4,274 bases of DNA from a virus (lineage: Duplodnaviria; Heunggongvirae; Uroviricota; Caudoviricetes). The position numbers were made by a program, and so were the translations under genes. The DNA lies in IMG/VR virus record IMGVR_UViG_2690316115_000023; one strand, written 5' to 3'. Below the pieces are notes generated by a model. The model was not told the DNA's origin. It did not search any database and worked only from the letters and a program-made list of their open reading frames with translations. Shown here piece after piece: positions 1-4,274 of the stretch (the stretch's first letter is position 1; every line of letters begins with the position of its first letter).

Positions 1-102
1 CTGCCACTGTTTCGCATGTGCCCAGGCATCACTACCCGCAAAAATAATGACTTCGGTCATCTTGTCGTAAGGCTGTTTTTTTAAGTTCGGTGCGCTTTTC
101 AT
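1..102 (-). CDS. Partial CDS (first 34 codons; continues beyond the window start), unknown function
   Basis: ATG at 102..100 overlaps the upstream TGA (ATGA coupling), with AGGGG 6 nt upstream. Open to the window edge. Translation: MKSAPNLKKQPYDKMTEVIIFAGSDAWAHAKQWQ. Confidence 0.45.
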   Translation of the reverse strand, partial: MKSAPNLKKQPYDKMTEVIIFAGSDAWAHAKQWQ

Positions 103-398
103 TTCTTGCCCCTGAATCCGTTAATCATGTTTTTCATCTTCTGAATATTGGTGCGTGCTTTCTCCCTGCTGGTTGGTTTACTGCGGGGCGCTGCCTGTAC
201 CAGAGAAAAATCACGATCGAACTGATAAACAGGCATAACGCAGTCATATTCGTAGCCTTCACGGCGGTAAGTGATGCGGCGTTCTCTCACGCTGATAATC
301 GTCACGATGCCGCCGTACTGGTCGCGGTAAATATCCCCGCGCATGAATTTAGTGCGAGTTTTGCCACTGGCAGTTAAGCCAGGATATTTAAGTTTCAT
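99..398 (-). CDS. Small hypothetical protein (99 aa), possibly DUF4222-like
   Basis: ATG at 398 with GGAGA 9 nt upstream. The core GDIYRDQYGGIVTIISVRERRITYRREGYEYDCVMPVYQFDRDFSLV matches my recollection of the DUF4222 pattern (YRD..G..V.V..V...R.TF.R.GY...C..P...F...F); unverified. TGA stop at 101..99. Confidence 0.6.
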   Translation of the reverse strand: MKLKYPGLTASGKTRTKFMRGDIYRDQYGGIVTIISVRERRITYRREGYEYDCVMPVYQFDRDFSLVQAAPRSKPTSREKARTNIQKMKNMINGFRGKK

Positions 399-403
399 TA
401 TTT

Positions 404-637
404 TTATTCTCCGGTGTGCTGTTCTTTATATCTGTCGTGCAATAGATCTATTTCCTGCAACTCATTTATTACAGGCTCAAGAAGCGTTATTAATGATGTA
501 ATAATCCGCGTTTTTTTTGCATTACGTTCATTATCGCCAAAGGATTCAAGGCACATCCGCAATATTTCGTACATACCTTCAGCGTAAGCAAGGGCACTAA
601 ATGCGCGGTCTATTGTTTCAAGATAAATATCACGCAT
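404..637 (-). CDS. Small hypothetical protein (77 aa), probable third, more divergent member of the paralog array
   Basis: ATG at 637, one nt after the upstream TAA (coupled). TAA stop at 406..404. Weak similarity to the previous two (AL ... E-x-M ... L-C/E-T/S). Confidence 0.55.
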   Translation of the reverse strand: MRDIYLETIDRAFSALAYAEGMYEILRMCLESFGDNERNAKKTRIITSLITLLEPVINELQEIDLLHDRYKEQHTGE

Positions 638-638
638 A

Positions 639-860
639 TTAATCCCCGTCCGTTGTTTTTCTTAAAACAGCTTCTGTCACGAAATCAGCATAGTTAGCGG
701 CAATATCAAGAATATTTAGCCCTGTACCTCTGTGCTCATCAGTGCAAAGAAAGAAAAAAGCCACCCGCATAATTTCAGATATTGACGAAAGCGCATCAGC
801 CGCATCATCAGGAACGCCGGAAAATTCTTGTTTCAGGGAATTAAAACGATCATCACGCAT
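639..860 (-). CDS. Small hypothetical protein (73 aa), second member of the paralog array
   Basis: ATG at 860 (8-nt overlap with the upstream TGA), preceded by the G8 tract as an SD-like element. TAA stop at 641..639. Carries GVPDDAADALSSI and GLNILDIA, paralogous to the 853..1074 product. The ORF track extends to 908, but that start has no RBS. Confidence 0.55.
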   Translation of the reverse strand: MRDDRFNSLKQEFSGVPDDAADALSSISEIMRVAFFFLCTDEHRGTGLNILDIAANYADFVTEAVLRKTTDGD

Positions 861-1074
861 AACCCCCCCCATTTTCACAATCAGCAACAAGAATATTTTT
901 AGCGTCATTCAGCGACCGCGTTGCGATGTATCGGATACATTCCAGGGCGAACGTTGTCCGGTCTTTCTGTTCTTCTCCCTGCGCAAGCTCTGCCGTGCAT
1001 TCAATATCAATAAGCGCGTGCATCAGCGTAGTGAGCGCGGCGGCGGCTGCGTCCGGTGTGGTTTTATTGCACAT
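853..1074 (-). CDS. Small hypothetical protein (73 aa), first member of a three-paralog array
   Basis: ATG at 1074 with AGGAGG 6 nt upstream; the start overlaps the upstream stop by 11 nt. TGA stop at 855..853. Shares the motif PD-A/D-AA-A/D-AL-T/S-T/S-L/I and NIL with the next gene, with synonymous codon differences. Confidence 0.6.
   Translation of the reverse strand: MCNKTTPDAAAAALTTLMHALIDIECTAELAQGEEQKDRTTFALECIRYIATRSLNDAKNILVADCENGGGYA
863..870. repeat. Homopolymeric C8 (G8 on the coding strand) tract at the junction of two overlapping genes
   Basis: Eight consecutive C at 863..870. It encodes Gly-Gly-Gly at the C-terminus of the upstream gene and sits 2 nt upstream of the ATG of the downstream gene. 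Confidence 0.9.
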
Positions 1075-1255
1075 GGCACACCTCCTGACGAATACGGGCG
1101 GCGAATACAGCAACACAACCGGACGGGCAACGGCTACGTGCTTCGCGTTCCGTCCAGGCGGTTACGTGGATGATTTGATGTTCTGACGCGCCAAAGATGA
1201 TAAAGCGCCAGAGAAAGGCGGTTTGAGAATGTACAAGGGTAGGGATAGTAGCCAT
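1064..1255 (-). CDS. Icd-like small protein, copy A (63 aa), translatable independently from an internal start
   Basis: ATG at 1255 with GAGGAGG 8 nt upstream. Sequence MATIPTLVHSQTAFLWRF...EREARSRCPSGCVAVFAARIRQEVCHVQ. The family assignment is from recalled Icd-like sequences (F-x-W-x-F near the N-terminus, EQEAR ... F-x-A-R near the C-terminus) and is unverified. Confidence 0.6.
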   Translation of the reverse strand: MATIPTLVHSQTAFLWRFIIFGASEHQIIHVTAWTEREARSRCPSGCVAVFAARIRQEVCHVQ

Positions 1256-1624
1256 GTTGGCAGCCTCCTCAGTGTGGTTAAGATAACCGCCACCGGAAAC
1301 GCCAATTTCGCTGGTGGCGGACTGTACAGGGTTGGCGTAACCGGACACTGAAGAAACCGGCGCGGATTGCTCCGCCCCCGTACAGCCCACCATTGATAAG
1401 GTGTGACTATGCGGCACAAAAAAACACGCGGGGCGCGTGTTATGCGCTTCAGTTTTGCCCAGGACGCCAATCCCGGCACCCGTTTTATGAGGTGCGCGGG
1501 AATCATAGCTATTTTCGACACTGGCGATCAACTGGTTTTTTTCTCCGATATTCAGGGCCAGAAAACGCCACACAAAGGCCGTTTGTGTGTGTACAAGGTG
1601 TGGTATATGATTTACGGCAACCAT
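1064..1624 (-). CDS. Two-domain read-through ORF (186 aa): tandem paralogous domains, tentatively Icd-like (host cell division inhibitor-like), joined by a Gly/Ser-rich linker
   Basis: ATG at 1624 with AGGAG 5 nt upstream (the ORF-track extension to GTG 1723 has no SD). The N-domain (PHLVHTQTAFVWRF...TEAHNTRPACFFV) and C-domain (PTLVHSQTAFLWRF...EREARSRCPSGCVAVFAARIRQEV) align with several synonymous codon differences (CAC/CAT, ACG/ACC, CGT/CGC), indicating protein-level conservation. There is no in-frame stop between them. TAA stop at 1066..1064. Confidence 0.5.
   Translation of the reverse strand: MVAVNHIPHLVHTQTAFVWRFLALNIGEKNQLIASVENSYDSRAPHKTGAGIGVLGKTEAHNTRPACFFVPHSHTLSMVGCTGAEQSAPVSSVSGYANPVQSATSEIGVSGGGYLNHTEEAANMATIPTLVHSQTAFLWRFIIFGASEHQIIHVTAWTEREARSRCPSGCVAVFAARIRQEVCHVQ
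1418..1440 (-). terminator. Intragenic intrinsic-terminator-like hairpin inside the first Icd-like domain
   Basis: On the minus strand: ACACGCG-CCC-CGCGUGU (7-bp GC-rich stem, 3-nt loop) followed by U6. It lies within the codons for NTRPACFF. Confidence 0.4.
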
Positions 1625-1654
1625 AACGGCTCCTAGTTTACGTTGTTGGTTAGA

Positions 1655-1697
1655 AGCCCTGCGAGTGGTAATGACACTTGCGGGGCTTTGCTTTTTT
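1655..1697 (+). terminator. Plus-oriented intrinsic terminator upstream of the RHH promoter region
   Basis: 13-bp stem (1655..1667 with 1675..1687, two G-U pairs), 7-nt loop, followed by UUGCUUUUUU. On the minus strand the two G-U pairs become C-A mismatches, so the structure is strand-specific. Confidence 0.55.
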
Positions 1698-1713
1698 AAG
1701 TGCTCTTGTGTTA

Positions 1714-1725
1714 AGGTGACCACCT
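1714..1725. promoter_or_regulatory. Palindromic operator-like site 1 (AGGTG-AC-CACCT)
   Basis: Perfect 5-bp inverted repeat with a 2-bp spacer, in the divergent intergenic region between the RHH gene (plus) and the small-protein operon (minus). Confidence 0.45.
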
Positions 1726-1748
1726 AACAATGGAAAGGCTAATTCAAT

Positions 1749-1760
1749 AGGTGACCACTT
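1749..1760. promoter_or_regulatory. Palindromic operator-like site 2 (AGGTG-AC-CACTT)
   Basis: Near-perfect inverted repeat overlapping the SD and start codon of the RHH gene; 35 bp from site 1. Confidence 0.45.
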
Positions 1761-1950
1761 GTCAACAATCAAACGCGATAAAAGCCCTAAAGGGGACGGG
1801 CAATCCCCACAATTCAGAATGCGAATTTCTCCAGAGCTAAAAGAGCAATTCGACAAAGAAGCACAGAGCGACGGCATAAGCCTAGCCAACTGGCTTAAAG
1901 AGTTGGGGCGCACTGAACTAAAGCGGCGCGGCATAGAACCCAAAGGATAA
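1759..1950 (+). CDS. Ribbon-helix-helix (Arc/Mnt/CopG-type) DNA-binding protein (63 aa from TTG 1759; 43 aa from ATG 1819)
   Basis: FRMRISPELKEQFDKEAQSDGISLANWLKEL fits the RHH fold pattern: a beta-strand with alternating residues, then helix A, a G-x-S turn and helix B (compare Mnt FNFRMPMEVREKLKFRAEANGRSMNSELL). The TTG start has AGGTG 5 nt upstream, overlapping the second palindrome. TAA stop at 1948..1950. Confidence 0.65.
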   Translation: MSTIKRDKSPKGDGQSPQFRMRISPELKEQFDKEAQSDGISLANWLKELGRTELKRRGIEPKG

Positions 1951-1992
1951 AAACTATCAGCGCCGTGGTGTGAGGTATTACGGCGCATTGCT

Positions 1993-2181
1993 ATGCAGGA
2001 CAACACAATGACCGATAAAGAATTGACCAAAACATTATCACCGGCACGGAAAAGACGGCGCAGAAAGATAGAGCATGAATCAGAAAGATTCGCACCATGT
2101 GCTTTTGCCCTTGAGCAATTCCTTAAAGAGTATAGGGAAAAGCGCTCATTGCAGGTATGGCAACGAACTGAACCAGACTGA
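1993..2181 (+). CDS. Hypothetical small basic protein (62 aa; 57 aa from the ATG at 2008), possible partner of the RHH protein
   Basis: ORF 42 nt downstream of the RHH stop, followed about 95 nt later by the plus-strand terminator. Arg/Lys-rich (KRRRRK). There is no canonical SD: GAGGT lies 16 nt upstream, inside the loop of a 7-bp hairpin at 1960..1986. Rare codons are present. Weakly supported. Confidence 0.35.
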   Translation: MQDNTMTDKELTKTLSPARKRRRRKIEHESERFAPCAFALEQFLKEYREKRSLQVWQRTEPD

Positions 2182-2276
2182 TTGCATTGCCCACCAGCCT
2201 GATAGCGGCTATCATCCCCGTGCTTATGTTTGGGATCACATACACATAAGGCGCAGCGGGTTAATTGTTCAGAAAG

Positions 2277-2303
2277 GCGGCTCCATATCGGGGCCGCTTT
2301 TTT
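2277..2303 (+). terminator. Rho-independent terminator, plus-oriented, closing the RHH / small-ORF unit; a weaker structure on the minus strand could act after alpA
   Basis: Plus strand: GCGGCUCC-AUAUC-GGGGCCGC (8 bp including one G-U) followed by U6 at 2298..2303. The minus-strand version has a C-A mismatch and a poorer U tract. Confidence 0.65.
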
Positions 2304-2329
2304 CGTGTTTGTCATATCTGTGATACCCG

Positions 2330-2536
2330 TTAAGCAGCCGTTCCGCGTGCTTCCTGTTCGCGTTCTTTCTGCCAGGCCAACACATCATCCTCATACCATC
2401 CGCGACGGCGTAAACCAACGCGAAAACCCTGCGGAAATTCTCCGGCGTTGATCATGCTTTGCAGCGTGCTGTCTGCCTTGATGTGGATAATTTTTTTTAC
2501 TTCCTGGCGAAAGATAATTTTTCTGATTGCTTCCAT
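2330..2536 (-). CDS. alpA: AlpA / Vis / excisionase-like HTH prophage regulatory protein (68 aa)
   Basis: The segment STLQSMINAGEFPQGFRVGLRRRGWYEDDVLAWQ matches the AlpA-family HTH pattern (S-T-I/L ... G-x-F-P ... G-x-R ... W ... V-x-x-W). ATG at 2536, with AAGGT 8-9 nt upstream; TAA stop at 2332..2330. Confidence 0.85.
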   Translation of the reverse strand: MEAIRKIIFRQEVKKIIHIKADSTLQSMINAGEFPQGFRVGLRRRGWYEDDVLAWQKEREQEARGTAA

Positions 2537-2613
2537 CGTGATTTACCTTGTGAATCCGGTGTATTCCGGTGACAAATACGGTAAATCATCGGATATGGGT
2601 AAAAACAGTTCCC

Positions 2614-2643
2614 ACCGTTTTTAAACGGTATACACCGTTTTTT
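2614..2643. promoter_or_regulatory. Array of three alternating ACCGTTT / AAACGGT half-sites in the alpA upstream region
   Basis: ACCGTTT-TT-AAACGGT (2614..2629) overlaps AACGGT-ATAC-ACCGTT (2624..2639). The ACCGTTT half-sites are 20 bp apart. Direct repeats TCCGGTG at 2555 and 2565 lie immediately upstream of the alpA SD. Confidence 0.35.
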
Positions 2644-2669
2644 ATATTGATGATTTGAAATGGAATTAT

Positions 2670-2693
2670 AAAAAAAGCGGCATTTCTGCCGCT
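2670..2693 (-). terminator. Rho-independent terminator ending the int / small-ORF transcript
   Basis: On the minus strand: GCGGCA-GAAA-UGCCGC hairpin (6-8 bp stem, 4-nt loop) followed immediately by U7 (plus-strand A7 at 2670..2676). Confidence 0.7.
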
Positions 2694-2703
2694 TCCAGGA
2701 TTG

Positions 2704-2955
2704 TTACCGCCATTTTTTGGGCCTGCCTCCGATCTTCATAGATGCCGGACGTACGACCTTATCAATACTTACCGCCAGATTTCTGGAAGCGCCACGGGAT
2801 ACCAGAAAGTCTACTACCTGTTTTTTTGATGGGGCCGTCGTTCTGTCCTCCGGATCGTAGGTTGACCAAAATTCATGCTGAACCATCAGGGCCAGTTGCA
2901 GCCCGTCGCAATTGCATCTGATATTTTTTTGCATCTTAACGGTTTCATGTTTCAC
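2704..2955 (-). CDS. Hypothetical small protein (83 aa from GTG; 76 aa from the internal ATG at 2934)
   Basis: ORF between int and alpA with TAA stop at 2706..2704, followed 11 nt later by a strong minus-strand intrinsic terminator. The start is weakly supported: GTG with AAGG only 2 nt upstream, or ATG at 2934 with no clear SD. No family recognised. Confidence 0.4.
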   Translation of the reverse strand: MKHETVKMQKNIRCNCDGLQLALMVQHEFWSTYDPEDRTTAPSKKQVVDFLVSRGASRNLAVSIDKVVRPASMKIGGRPKKWR

Positions 2956-2979
2956 GGCCTTGTCGTTAAATTTGATGCA

Positions 2980-2985
2980 ATTATA
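2980..2985 (-). promoter_or_regulatory. Candidate -10 hexamer (TATAAT on the minus strand) for the small ORF downstream of int
   Basis: Perfect TATAAT on the minus strand about 25 nt upstream of the GTG at 2955, preceded by phased A-tracts (plus-strand GGTTTT repeats at 2990, 3000, 3019). No good -35 hexamer. Confidence 0.3.
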
Positions 2986-3032
2986 CGACGGTTTTACATG
3001 GTTTTCGTAGTTTTTACTGGTTTTCTGTACAG

Positions 3033-4274
3033 CTACACGGCTCGGATACCCCTTTTACCACTGGCGAGGGTTACGCCCGTCGCCGCAGCCTCGACAAATT
3101 CGCCCCACCAGCGCATCAGCACGATGCGTTTTTCTATGTAGTTGCTCCGGTTGTATGCCCGTCTAACTTCGTTGGTGTCGACGTGGGCAAGTGCCGCCTC
3201 TATTACGTCCGGCTCGAATCCTTCCTCGTTCGCTGCTGTGCTGAATATGGCGCGTAATCCATGAGACACCAGCACGCCAGCGAATCCCATACGCCGCAAT
3301 GCTGCGTTAGCTGTCTGGCTGTTCATCGGCTGCTGTGGGTCTTTCAGACTTGGGAAAACGTAATTGCGGTGGTGGCTGATTGGTTTCATGGCCTCCAGCA
3401 CCGCCATAGCCTGACCGGAAAGCGGGATAACGTGATCCCTGCGCATCTTCATACGTCCGGCAGGTATCGTCCATTGCTTCGCGTCCAGGTTGATTTCATC
3501 CCACCGCGTTGATGACGCTTCGGCGGGACGGGTTACGGTCAGTAACTGCCATTCAATCAGTAATCTGGTCTGCCGTTCTGTTGCCGATACTGATAAAGCC
3601 TGCATAAGCTCCGGCAGCTGTTCGGGGCGGATTGTTGGCATATGTTTTTTTACAGGTGAGGGAAACGCCTTACGCACATTCATAGCCGGATTGGCATCAA
3701 TCAGCCCACTGTTGGCGGCGTAATCCATTACCTCATTAACGCGCTGTAAAACCCGCTTGAGTGTTTCCAGGTTGCCGCGCTCCTTGATGGGGGTAAGCAC
3801 TTCAACGAACCTTCGGGCGGTGAGGGTATCTATTGGCGTGTTGCCGATGAACGGGAATACATATTTATCCAGCGAACGCCAGATGTCTTTAATCGTGTTG
3901 GGGGCCAGATTCTGGCTGATTTTCACCTGGTACCATGCCGCCGCCACATTTTCGAACGTGTTCCCTTGTCTTCGGGCCTCTGTCTCTCTTTTTTGCCTCT
4001 CGTGGTCCTGCGGGTCAGTTCCGGCACTGATTAACGTCCTGTACTCGCTACGGCGTTTTCTGGCATCAGCCAGGGAAACATCTTCAAGCGATCCAAAACT
4101 CAGCAATATTCTTTTTTTGTCCGATGGTCGGTAGTAGGAAAATCTCCAGAGTTTTGATCCAGACGGTTTGACCAGGAGAAAAAGCCCTCCGCCGTCCTGC
4201 AGGGTGTACTCCTTTTGCGCTGGTCTGGCTGCTTTGATCTGCACTGTGGTTAATGGGTGTGTTTTTCTCACCAT
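3033..4274 (-). CDS. int: Site-specific tyrosine recombinase, P4-type phage integrase family (413 aa)
   Basis: The N-terminus (KEYTLQDGGGLFLLVKPSGSKLWRFSY) is the typical P4-like integrase arm-binding region. The C-terminal catalytic domain carries TVTRPAEA (box I Arg), SHGLRAIFST (HxxR) and LAHV...RAYNRSNY (His and catalytic Tyr). ATG at 4274..4272, TAG stop at 3035..3033. The RBS and promoter lie outside the window. Confidence 0.95.
   Translation of the reverse strand: MVRKTHPLTTVQIKAARPAQKEYTLQDGGGLFLLVKPSGSKLWRFSYYRPSDKKRILLSFGSLEDVSLADARKRRSEYRTLISAGTDPQDHERQKRETEARRQGNTFENVAAAWYQVKISQNLAPNTIKDIWRSLDKYVFPFIGNTPIDTLTARRFVEVLTPIKERGNLETLKRVLQRVNEVMDYAANSGLIDANPAMNVRKAFPSPVKKHMPTIRPEQLPELMQALSVSATERQTRLLIEWQLLTVTRPAEASSTRWDEINLDAKQWTIPAGRMKMRRDHVIPLSGQAMAVLEAMKPISHHRNYVFPSLKDPQQPMNSQTANAALRRMGFAGVLVSHGLRAIFSTAANEEGFEPDVIEAALAHVDTNEVRRAYNRSNYIEKRIVLMRWWGEFVEAAATGVTLASGKRGIRAV

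What the first reader, a model, noticed from the sequence alone, without database searches (positions are those of the whole stretch)
404..1074. Tandem array of three paralogous small proteins of unknown family
The 853..1074 and 639..860 products share the motif PD-A/D-AA-A/D-AL-T/S-T/S-L/I and a downstream NIL block, with several synonymous codon differences, which points to protein-level selection. The 404..637 product appears to be a more distant relative. The genes overlap by 11 nt and 8 nt or are 1 nt apart. Tandem, rapidly diverging small paralogs at the head of a satellite or prophage operon are typical of host-takeover, anti-defence or helper-interference factors. I recognise no known domain.
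Basis: seen in the sequence. Interest (0 to 1): 0.6.

Follow-up and report, generated by a model that had tools for sequence, protein, structure and literature searches.

The report
Three unrelated small satellite early genes
The three small genes are real, selected and tightly coupled early genes of an E. coli phage-satellite island, but they are not detectable paralogs; the most unusual feature is a hypervariable run of G bases at the first junction that joins or separates the first two genes in different strains.

Summary
The ORFs at 853-1074, 639-860 and 404-637 (minus strand) exist as described. They are conserved, intact and under purifying selection (dN/dS 0.26-0.37). They lie in an E. 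coli phage-inducible chromosomal island, between an RNA-immunity leader (isrK/seqA-like, C4/CI-like RNA, Icd-like ORF) and the replication genes (DUF4222, RepA-family helicase).

Paralogy is not supported. BLASTP finds nothing, Smith-Waterman against shuffles gives p = 0.055 at best, and profile-profile probability is at most 1%. The three fall into three different PHROG families. The shared PD-A-AL motif and the NIL block are not collinear. What the three share is size, acidity and an all-helical prediction.

New finding: gene 1 ends in a G8 run (863-870). In relatives this run is G7 to G11. G7 and G10 fuse genes 1 and 2 into one 144/145-aa protein (about 27% of 139 loci). G8, the modal state, keeps them separate. 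Near-identical backgrounds carry different run lengths, and two assemblies of one strain differ only there.

Function is unknown. The best guess, from position only, is small acidic binding proteins aimed at helper or host targets. The finding is of modest interest.

The parts
853..1074 (-). Gene 1 (g1). 73 aa, acidic (pI 4.5). Two long helices are predicted, at low confidence. Conserved ends, hypervariable centre.
   Evidence: (phrog_5146 and the N-terminal half of phrog_2512)
863..870 (-). Homopolymer G8 (C8 on the + strand) at the 3' end of g1, 2 nt upstream of the g2 ATG. Length-variable in relatives (G7-G11). It sets whether g1 and g2 are separate or fused, and it is also the only Shine-Dalgarno-like element for g2.
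639..860 (-). Gene 2 (g2). 73 aa, acidic (pI 4.4). One short and two long helices are predicted, at low confidence. Its start ATG lies inside the last codons of g1 (8-nt overlap ATGCGTGA).
   Evidence: (phrog_24341 and the C-terminal half of phrog_2512)
404..637 (-). Gene 3 (g3). 77 aa, acidic (pI 4.8). High-confidence helical hairpin (helices 2-32 and 37-74, pLDDT 91). Always 77 aa in relatives. Optional or replaceable between islands.
   Evidence: (phrog_2196)
1064..1255 (-). Icd-like ORF (63 aa), whose stop overlaps the g1 start by 11 nt.
   Evidence: NF033153, 57 bits against a cut-off of 25; RefSeq annotation
1310..1397 (-). C4 / P4-CI-type antisense immunity RNA in the operon leader.
   Evidence: RF01695, 77.6 bits against gathering score 45; PMC10111431
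1419..1495 (-). isrK / P4-seqA-type leader element ending in a terminator-like hairpin.
   Evidence: RF01394, 66 bits against gathering score 50; hairpin 1441-1423 plus T run
99..398 (-). DUF4222 protein (99 aa, basic, pI 10.4). Next gene of the operon, 5 nt after g3.
   Evidence: PF13973, 82.6 bits
1..102 (-). Start of the RepA-family helicase gene (replication module). It runs off the window.
   Evidence: WP_000833625.1 in L001 and L002 at the equivalent position
2330..2536 (-). AlpA-like HTH regulator or excisionase of the island.
3033..4274 (-). Tyrosine integrase of the island. In relatives it lies next to tRNA-Pro and yejM.
   Evidence: NF007246, 551 bits

Best explanation
The three ORFs are separate, co-transcribed and translationally coupled early accessory genes of a Gram-negative phage-inducible chromosomal island (PICI-type satellite). 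They lie between a P4/P1-type RNA-immunity leader (isrK/seqA-like element, C4/CI-like RNA, Icd-like ORF) and the replication genes (DUF4222, RepA-family helicase).

Shown: they belong to three different narrow families and are not a paralog array. Each is a roughly 75-aa acidic protein predicted to be all-helical. They behave as exchangeable cassettes joined at conserved junction sequences, with old mosaic alleles and purifying selection.

Shown: g1 and g2 are by default two genes with an 8-nt stop/start overlap. A hypermutable poly-G run at the junction (G8 here) slips recurrently. G7 and G10 make one fused 144/145-aa g1-g2 protein, and G9 gives g1 an altered 80-aa C-terminus. g2 keeps its own ATG and G-rich ribosome-binding site in every state.

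Inferred: the genes are expressed only when the RNA-mediated block in the leader is lifted after helper-phage induction, and translation passes down the chain from the Icd-like ORF. The products act as small protein-binding factors aimed at helper-phage or host proteins. They occupy the position of the antirepressors P4 epsilon, P1 Ant and Gifsy-1 AnrP. g1 and g2 probably work together, because natural fusions are common and tolerated.
For: Genes and context:
- Exact ORFs and spacing.
- PICI context: integrase, AlpA-like regulator, Ash/Icd region, DUF4222, RepA-family helicase, TerS and capsid next to tRNA-Pro.
- C4 and isrK RNAs well above their Rfam gathering scores, just upstream. PMC10111431 states that these two profiles detect P4 CI and seqA relatives in Gram-negative PICIs.
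- The order Icd-like, [extra module], g1, g2, [g3], DUF4222 is kept in 49 metagenome loci whose integrases are 22-100% identical to this one.
- dN/dS is 0.26-0.37 and ORF lengths are conserved.
- The three hit different PHROGs, and no pairwise or profile similarity is detected.
- Predictions are helical and the proteins are acidic.
- No hit in 50,697 phage records, and only 38 representatives among 1.84 billion proteins.

G-run:
- Window G8. L001 and L003 G9. L004 G10.
- 49 metagenome loci: G8 25, G9 12, G7 9, G10 1, interrupted 2.
- 90 IMG/VR loci: G8 34, G7 23, G9 18, G10 4, G11 2, interrupted 9.
- Different run lengths occur on backgrounds at least 99.5% identical.
- About 100 distinct full-length fused proteins exist.
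- Contig counts of exact protein forms: 80-aa form at least 1000, 73-aa form 330, fused forms 258, 152 and 212.

Two genes as the default state:
- Diverged stand-alone g1-like and g2-like proteins exist.
- L054 has a g1-like gene without a G run, overlapping a g3-like gene by the same 8 nt.
- Short interrupted runs (GGGGGTGG, GGGGTGGG) are all in the G8 frame.
- g2 is intact in 47 of 50 loci whatever the run length.
Against: No experiment and no homology links any of the three proteins to a known function. The antirepressor-like role rests on gene position alone. tblastn against the phage collection found no similarity; whether P4 or P1 records are in that collection was not checked. The AlphaFold model of the fused g1-g2 protein is poor (pLDDT 48), so neither a g1-g2 interface nor their folds are established. 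The g3 fold search returns only generic helical hairpins (E of 0.26 or higher). Some of the G-run variation could be homopolymer sequencing error. The two assemblies of strain 97-3250 that differ by one G fit error as well as real switching. The loci surveyed were selected by the junction pattern, so conservation of the junction itself is partly circular.
Confidence: 0.55

Rival explanations
1. g1 and g2 are really one gene of 144/145 aa. The window carries a frameshift allele (a pseudogene or a homopolymer sequencing error), so there are only two genes here.
For: PHROG 2512 (154 aa) covers g1 and g2 end to end. About 100 distinct fused proteins at 72-99% identity occur in E. coli. Fused forms are found on hundreds of contigs. 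G7 or G10 occurs in about 27% of loci. Two assemblies of one strain disagree by one G.
Against: The G8 frame is the commonest state (about half of 139 loci). Interrupted, non-slippery runs are in the G8 frame. Diverged relatives encode stand-alone g1-like proteins (P0303, P0306, P0317), and g2-like proteins that begin exactly at the g2 Met (P0304, P0307, P0314, P0322). In L054 a g1-like gene without a G run is followed by a g3-like gene with the same 8-nt overlap. The g2 module also occurs behind a different N-terminal domain (P0301). g2 stays intact and under purifying selection in split-state loci.
Confidence: 0.15
2. One reading: the three genes are highly diverged tandem paralogs from duplication of one ancestral 75-aa helical-hairpin gene.
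For: All three have the same size, acidity and all-helical prediction. The pattern P-x-x-A-x-x-A-[LIMV] is conserved in both the g1 and g2 families. g2 and g3 share the start context GGGG..TTA(AT)ATGCGTGAT and begin with MRD. The cassettes are exchangeable.
Against: No BLASTP alignment is found. Smith-Waterman is not above shuffles. hhalign probability is 1%, 0.1% and 0.1%. The three hit separate PHROGs. The motif and the NIL block are not collinear. A helical hairpin is too simple a fold to indicate descent. An exhaustive HMMER search with g1-g2 over 1.84 billion proteins never returned a g3-like protein.
Confidence: 0.1
3. The small proteins are accessory factors for the satellite's own replication, for example helicase loading or origin recognition with DUF4222 and the RepA-family helicase. 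They are not helper- or host-directed factors.
For: They lie immediately upstream of DUF4222 and the RepA-family helicase, in the same tightly coupled operon, in every locus examined.
Against: The cassettes are optional or replaceable while DUF4222 and the helicase are constant. g3 is absent or replaced in 10 of 49 loci, and the extra upstream module is present in 13 of 49. g1 and g2 alleles reassort freely. Acidic proteins are unlikely to bind DNA. Frameshift-prone runs are tolerated.
Confidence: 0.2
4. The ORFs are not translated. The region is a leader or spacer with chance ORFs.
For: There are no domain hits and no experimental data. The AlphaFold confidence for g1-g2 is low.
Against: dN/dS is 0.26-0.37. 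ORF lengths are conserved at 45-100% protein identity. Each start has a Shine-Dalgarno-like sequence, and the stop/start overlaps are precise. The g3 model is confident.
Confidence: 0.03

Closest known systems
Gram-negative PICIs (EcCICFT073-type satellites), with the four-zone plan Integration / Bro / Replication / Late described in PMC10111431
   Same: The island has an inward-facing integrase, an AlpA-like regulator, an Ash/eta-like region carrying C4 and isrK RNA elements, a replication helicase, then TerS and a capsid gene. It is about 8.5 kb and sits at a tRNA gene.
   Different: The cited paper was searched only for three terms (icd, isrK, antirepressor) and its 'Gene content' section was read; that section does not describe the small cassettes between the immunity leader and the replication genes. 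No paper in the library names these proteins. This island carries a RepA-family helicase preceded by DUF4222, not the Primase/DUF5906 genes listed there.
P4 left operon (eta, CI RNA, epsilon, orf151, alpha), P1 immI (c4, icd, ant1/2) and Gifsy-1 isrK-orf45-anrP
   Same: In each, an RNA-based immunity element in the leader is followed by an Icd-type small ORF and then by coupled downstream genes. In these three systems the downstream genes include an antirepressor (my knowledge of the P1, P4 and Gifsy-1 literature; PMC4825925 and PMC10111431 for the RNA elements). g1-g3 occupy that position and are small and acidic.
   Different: tblastn of g1-g2 and g3 against 50,697 phage records found nothing. 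Whether P4 or P1 records are in that collection was not checked, and no direct comparison with epsilon, Ant or AnrP was made. No binding or derepression activity has been shown.
Phase-variable contingency loci (homopolymer-tract switching, as in Neisseria, Haemophilus and Campylobacter)
   Same: A G7-G11 run lies inside coding sequence. Its length differs between near-identical backgrounds, and it changes the reading frame.
   Different: The switch does not turn a gene on or off. It toggles between two separate proteins, a C-terminally altered g1, and a fused two-module protein. The element is an E. coli phage satellite, and the run also serves as the ribosome-binding site of the downstream gene. 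Switching within a clone has not been measured.
PHROG families 5146, 24341, 2196 and 2512 (all 'unknown function')
   Same: g1, g2 and g3 match these families at E = 1.6e-12, 1.6e-42 and 1.7e-31. The fused form corresponds to phrog_2512.
   Different: These families carry no functional annotation. No record of the current phage collection contains them, so they probably entered PHROGs from prophage-like regions.

Membership tests
Single paralogous family (g1 ~ g2 ~ g3) | Significant pairwise sequence similarity | tested here: not met
   BLASTP finds no alignment. Smith-Waterman against 2000 shuffles gives p = 0.055, 0.82 and 0.32.
Single paralogous family (g1 ~ g2 ~ g3) | Profile-profile similarity of the three family alignments | tested here: not met
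   hhalign probability is 1% (13 columns), 0.1% and 0.1%. The profiles are shallow (Neff about 2.2).
Single paralogous family (g1 ~ g2 ~ g3) | Same specific three-dimensional fold | tested here: inconclusive
   g3 is a confident helical hairpin. The g1-g2 model has pLDDT 48 and is all helical. No pairwise structure comparison was possible.
Gram-negative PICI-type satellite | Integrase plus AlpA-like regulator at one end, facing inward | tested here: met
Gram-negative PICI-type satellite | Own replication gene and phage late or packaging genes, small size, no tail or lysis genes | tested here: met
   In L001 the island has a RepA-family helicase, TerS and a major capsid gene within about 8.5 kb, between yejO and tRNA-Pro.
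Gram-negative PICI-type satellite | Induction and packaging by a helper phage | not testable with these tools
   Needs experiments.
P4 CI / P1 C4-type RNA immunity leader | C4/CI RNA and seqA/isrK element upstream of an Icd-like ORF | tested here: met
   RF01695 scores 77.6 bits and RF01394 scores 66 bits, both above their gathering scores. NF033153 (Icd-like) scores 57 bits.
Antirepressors in the position after the Icd-type ORF (P4 epsilon, P1 Ant, Gifsy-1 AnrP) | Sequence or profile homology to a known antirepressor | tested here: inconclusive
   Pfam, NCBIfam, PHROG and PADLOC scans give no functional assignment. tblastn against the phage collection finds nothing, but no antirepressor sequence was compared directly, and the presence of P4, P1 or Gifsy-1 records in that collection was not checked.
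Antirepressors in the position after the Icd-type ORF (P4 epsilon, P1 Ant, Gifsy-1 AnrP) | Binds and inactivates a helper-phage repressor | not testable with these tools
   Only the positional analogy is available.
Phase-variable contingency locus | Homopolymer tract in coding sequence with length polymorphism on otherwise identical backgrounds | tested here: met
Phase-variable contingency locus | High-frequency reversible switching within a clonal population, with a phenotypic consequence | not testable with these tools
   Two assemblies of strain 97-3250 differ only by one G. This is suggestive but also fits sequencing error.

The most novel reading that the evidence does not exclude
The early cassette region of this satellite family carries selected contingency switches, which are hypermutable homopolymers placed at or inside cassette junctions. 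These are G7-G11 between g1 and g2, A7/A8 between the optional upstream module and g1, and G5-G10 inside the alternative third cassette. Under this reading, a clonal population of satellite carriers continually produces free, fused, extended or truncated versions of its small acidic effector proteins. That would be bet-hedging in the conflict with helper phages and host, and would be phase variation of protein architecture in an E. coli phage satellite.
Probability: 0.15. Interest if true: 0.65.

Novelty: new member of a known kind. Interest (0 to 1): 0.35.

Why it matters
Small early genes of phage satellites are where helper-derepression, interference and anti-defence functions have repeatedly been found. 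These three families are widespread in E. coli, including many STEC genomes, and are completely uncharacterised.

The practical lesson is that the 'paralog array' is three unrelated cassettes. Annotation of genes 1 and 2 flips between one and two genes, depending on a single G in a homopolymer. This affects pangenome counts and pseudogene calls in thousands of genomes. If the homopolymer switching proves to be real and adaptive, it would be an unusual example of phase-variable protein fusion in a mobile element of E. coli.

Tried and rejected
- Pfam, NCBIfam and PADLOC scans of the three proteins gave nothing usable. The weak hits (Mad3_BUB1_I at E = 0.054, APH(9)-Ib at E = 0.054) lie far below their cut-offs and were rejected.
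- PDB sequence searches with family profiles found nothing.
- Fold searches with the g3 model against PDB and BFVD gave only generic two-helix matches (E of 0.26 or higher), which were rejected as uninformative. The fused g1-g2 model was too poor (pLDDT 48) to search with.
- tblastn against phages found nothing. Against plasmids there were four E. coli records, again next to Icd-like genes.
- Counting run lengths in complete E. coli genomes with 78/79-nt megablast queries failed, because partial alignments contaminate the identity bands. This was replaced by pattern scans of metagenome and IMG/VR contigs.
- The genome contigs pattern scan and the related-locus scan found nothing.
- The third homolog search, with P0306, returned only P0306 itself, but it allowed its contig to be fetched.
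- A search for complementarity between the C4-like RNA and the Icd-like ribosome-binding site gave no clear target.
- Literature searches for the RefSeq protein accessions, and for homopolymer phase variation in PICIs, found nothing.
- Tests for diversifying selection, gene-wide and centre against flanks, were negative.

Full report
**The observation**

The window carries three minus-strand ORFs at exactly the stated coordinates. They are g1 at 853-1074 (73 aa), g2 at 639-860 (73 aa) and g3 at 404-637 (77 aa). The upstream ORF 1064-1255 overlaps g1 by 11 nt, g1 overlaps g2 by 8 nt (ATGCGTGA), and one base separates g2 and g3. Each start has a purine-rich ribosome-binding sequence. These are AGGAGG before g1, the G run before g2, and GGGGA before g3.

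**Are they genes?**

Yes. I collected 49 metagenome loci that carry the g1/g2 junction and four E. coli genome loci.
- ORF lengths are conserved. All 29 g3 copies are 231 nt, and g2 is intact in 47 of 50 loci.
- Nei-Gojobori dN/dS is 0.37 for g1, 0.26 for g2 and 0.29 for g3. The neighbouring DUF4222 gene gives 0.31.

**Are they paralogs?**

No test supports this.
- BLASTP finds no alignment between any pair.
- Smith-Waterman scores against 2000 shuffles give p = 0.055 (g1-g2), 0.82 (g1-g3) and 0.32 (g2-g3).
- I built family alignments that include diverged members (A2, A3, A6). With these, hhalign gives probability 1% over only 13 columns for g1-g2, and about 0.1% for the other two pairs.
- Each protein hits a different PHROG of unknown function: 5146, 24341 and 2196.
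- The shared PD-A-AL string is real, and P-x-x-A-x-x-A-[LIMV] is kept in both families. It is a helix-start pattern.
- The motif is offset by +10 residues between the two proteins and the NIL block by -12, so the two matches cannot be part of one alignment.

What the three do share is size, acidity (pI 4.4-4.8) and an all-helical prediction. g3 is a confident helical hairpin (pLDDT 91). The g1-g2 model is all helical but unreliable (pLDDT 48). Fold searches with g3 return only generic hairpins.

**Context**

The window is the left part of an island of about 8.5 kb at tRNA-Pro/yejM in E. coli. The gene order is integrase, a small ORF, an AlpA-like regulator, an Ash/Icd region, g1, g2, g3, DUF4222, a RepA-family helicase, small ORFs, TerS and a major capsid gene. 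This matches the Integration / Bro / Replication / Late plan described for Gram-negative PICIs (PMC10111431).

Rfam finds a C4 antisense RNA at 1310-1397 (77.6 bits, gathering score 45) and an isrK element at 1419-1495 (66 bits, gathering score 50). Both are on the minus strand, inside the annotated 'Ash' ORF. PMC10111431 states that these two profiles detect relatives of the P4 CI immunity RNA and its seqA target in such islands. So g1-g3 are the first genes after an RNA-immunity leader and an Icd-like ORF (NF033153), and they precede the replication genes.

The order Icd-like, [optional 72-aa module], g1, g2, [g3 or another cassette], DUF4222 recurs in islands whose integrases are only 22-100% identical to this one.

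**The unexpected feature**

g1 ends ...GAA AAT GGG GGG GGT TAT GCG TGA, and the G8 run is at window 863-870. PHROG 2512 (154 aa) covers g1 and g2 end to end. A search with an in-silico fusion found about 100 distinct 144/145/150-aa proteins at 72-99% identity in E. coli.

The DNA shows why. Relatives have G9 (L001, L003), G8 (L002) or G10 (L004).
- G7 and G10 put g1 and g2 in one frame.
- G9 gives g1 an 80-aa form.
- G8 gives the two overlapping genes seen here.

Counts of run length:

| Set | G7 | G8 | G9 | G10 | G11 | Interrupted |
|---|---|---|---|---|---|---|
| 49 metagenome loci | 9 | 25 | 12 | 1 | 0 | 2 |
| 90 IMG/VR loci | 23 | 34 | 18 | 4 | 2 | 9 |

By reading frame, this is about 49% G8-type, 24% G9-type and 27% fused.

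Exact-sequence contig counts agree. The 80-aa form is on at least 1000 contigs and the 73-aa form on 330. Fused forms are on 258, 152 and 212 contigs.

Backgrounds that are at least 99.5% identical over 400 flanking bases carry different run lengths. Two independent assemblies of strain 97-3250 differ in this 4.5-kb region only by one G in the run. That can be real switching or homopolymer error. The predominantly short-read-style (SPAdes-named) metagenome contigs argue that most of the variation is real.

**Which state is the default?**

The two-gene state.
- An exhaustive HMMER search over 1.84 billion representatives found only 38 relatives.
- These include stand-alone g1-like proteins (P0303 ends ENGGGYA as here; P0306 and P0317 have no Gly run) and stand-alone g2-like proteins that begin exactly at the g2 Met (P0304, P0307, P0314, P0322).
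- They also include a g2 module behind an unrelated N-terminal domain (P0301).
- The contig of P0306 (L054) shows an Icd-like ORF, then a g1-like gene ending ...GGG CAT GCA TAA. That gene overlaps the ATG of a g3-like gene by the same 8 nt, and DUF4222 follows. There is no g2.
- Short interrupted runs (GGGGGTGG, GGGGTGGG), which can no longer slip easily, are all in the G8 frame.

Because fusion is common and tolerated, g1 and g2 probably act together. This is an inference in the Rosetta-stone sense and was not shown structurally.

**Cassette behaviour**

g1 and g2 have conserved ends and hypervariable centres, and their alleles reassort across the junction. The centres do not show positive selection. 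dN/dS is 0.46 and 0.31 in the centres, against 0.32 and 0.33 in the flanks, and dS is high. The pattern is therefore old mosaic alleles rather than rapid adaptive divergence.

g2 and g3 share the start context GGGG..TTA(AT)ATGCGTGAT and both begin with MRD. In some islands g3 follows g1 directly (P0238; L054).

Two further homopolymers behave like the G run.
- An A7/A8 run at the junction of the optional upstream module and g1 accounts for the 217-221-aa triple fusions P0048 and P0088.
- A G5-G10 run lies inside the loop of the alternative third cassette, where most copies are frame-shifted relative to the full-length form.

**Function**

No library assigns a function. The proteins are absent from 50,697 phage records and from the literature searched.

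The best-supported mechanism is therefore positional and inferred. In P4 (CI RNA, then epsilon), P1 (c4, icd, then ant) and Gifsy-1 (isrK, orf45, then anrP), the genes coupled downstream of this kind of leader include an antirepressor. This statement rests on my knowledge of those systems; PMC4825925 and PMC10111431 cover the RNA elements. Small acidic helical proteins fit a protein-binding inhibitor role.

I put the anatomical conclusions at about 0.85-0.9. These are three unrelated, real, coupled cassette genes, with a G-run toggle between g1 and g2. I put the helper- or host-directed binding-factor role at about 0.3. A role in the island's own replication is the main functional rival, at about 0.2.

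**Verdict**

The genes, the spacing and the motif string are real, and the paralogy is not. The satellite early-operon setting is correct, and the function is untested. The proteins are uncharacterised members of a known kind of system. The homopolymer-controlled fusion is the only feature a specialist might find surprising. Overall interest is modest.

Noticed in passing
window 1310-1397 (-) and 1419-1495 (-): A C4/P4-CI-type antisense RNA and an isrK/seqA-type element, both above their Rfam gathering scores, lie inside the ORF that RefSeq annotates as a partial 'ash family protein'. A weak c4-a1b1 target hit at 1456-1508 is below threshold. A simple complementarity search did not identify the RNA's target near the Icd-like start.
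   Followed up: partly
L006, L010, L013, L018, L025 and others versus L012 (junction of the optional upstream 72-aa module and g1): An A8 run (A7 in L012) sits at this junction. A7 puts the upstream module and g1 in one frame. This explains the 217-221-aa proteins P0048 and P0088, which are triple fusions of the module, g1 and g2.
   Followed up: partly
L005, L007, L020, L037, L043, L047, L052 (third cassette, between g2 and DUF4222): An alternative g3-like allele (MDKIPFDVLIHSENAL...) contains a poly-G run of 5 to 10 bases in the loop between its two helices. Only L020 (and L054, which lacks the run) encodes the full-length protein of about 70 aa. The others are frame-shifted to 47-52 aa.
   Followed up: partly
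L003 (NZ_CP027599.1) versus L004 (NZ_CP074773.1): Two independent complete assemblies of the same strain, 97-3250, are identical over this 4.5-kb region except for one G in the junction run (G9 versus G10). RefSeq therefore annotates two genes in one assembly and one 145-aa gene in the other.
   Followed up: yes
window 1650-2315, both strands: RefSeq relatives annotate a partial pseudogene here ('Icd-like' or 'hypothetical', incomplete). A 63-aa plus-strand ORF at 1759-1950 has weak HicB/Arc/YlcI-YnfO similarity. Terminator-like hairpins lie on the + strand at 1653-1689 and 2271-2303. This may be a degenerate second leader or a divergent regulator.
   Followed up: no
window 511-518 (T8 on +, A8 in g3): g3 contains an A8 run in its inter-helix loop (codons for NAKKT). 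Unlike the G run it shows no length variation, because all 29 g3 copies recovered are 231 nt. Other alleles encode the loop without a run.
   Followed up: yes
L001 8063-16620: The whole island is only about 8.5 kb. It ends with TerS, a 53-aa ORF and a major capsid gene directly next to a frameshifted yejO. It has capsid and small-terminase genes but no portal, protease or large terminase, so it may be a reduced capsid-forming-type satellite or a remnant.
   Followed up: no
L017, L045, L048 (third cassette position): A further unrelated cassette (MHNHE.H.PVVLNVP.D.TGRVL..., 57-66 aa) replaces g3 in some islands. This shows that the slot before DUF4222 accepts several unrelated small genes.
   Followed up: no
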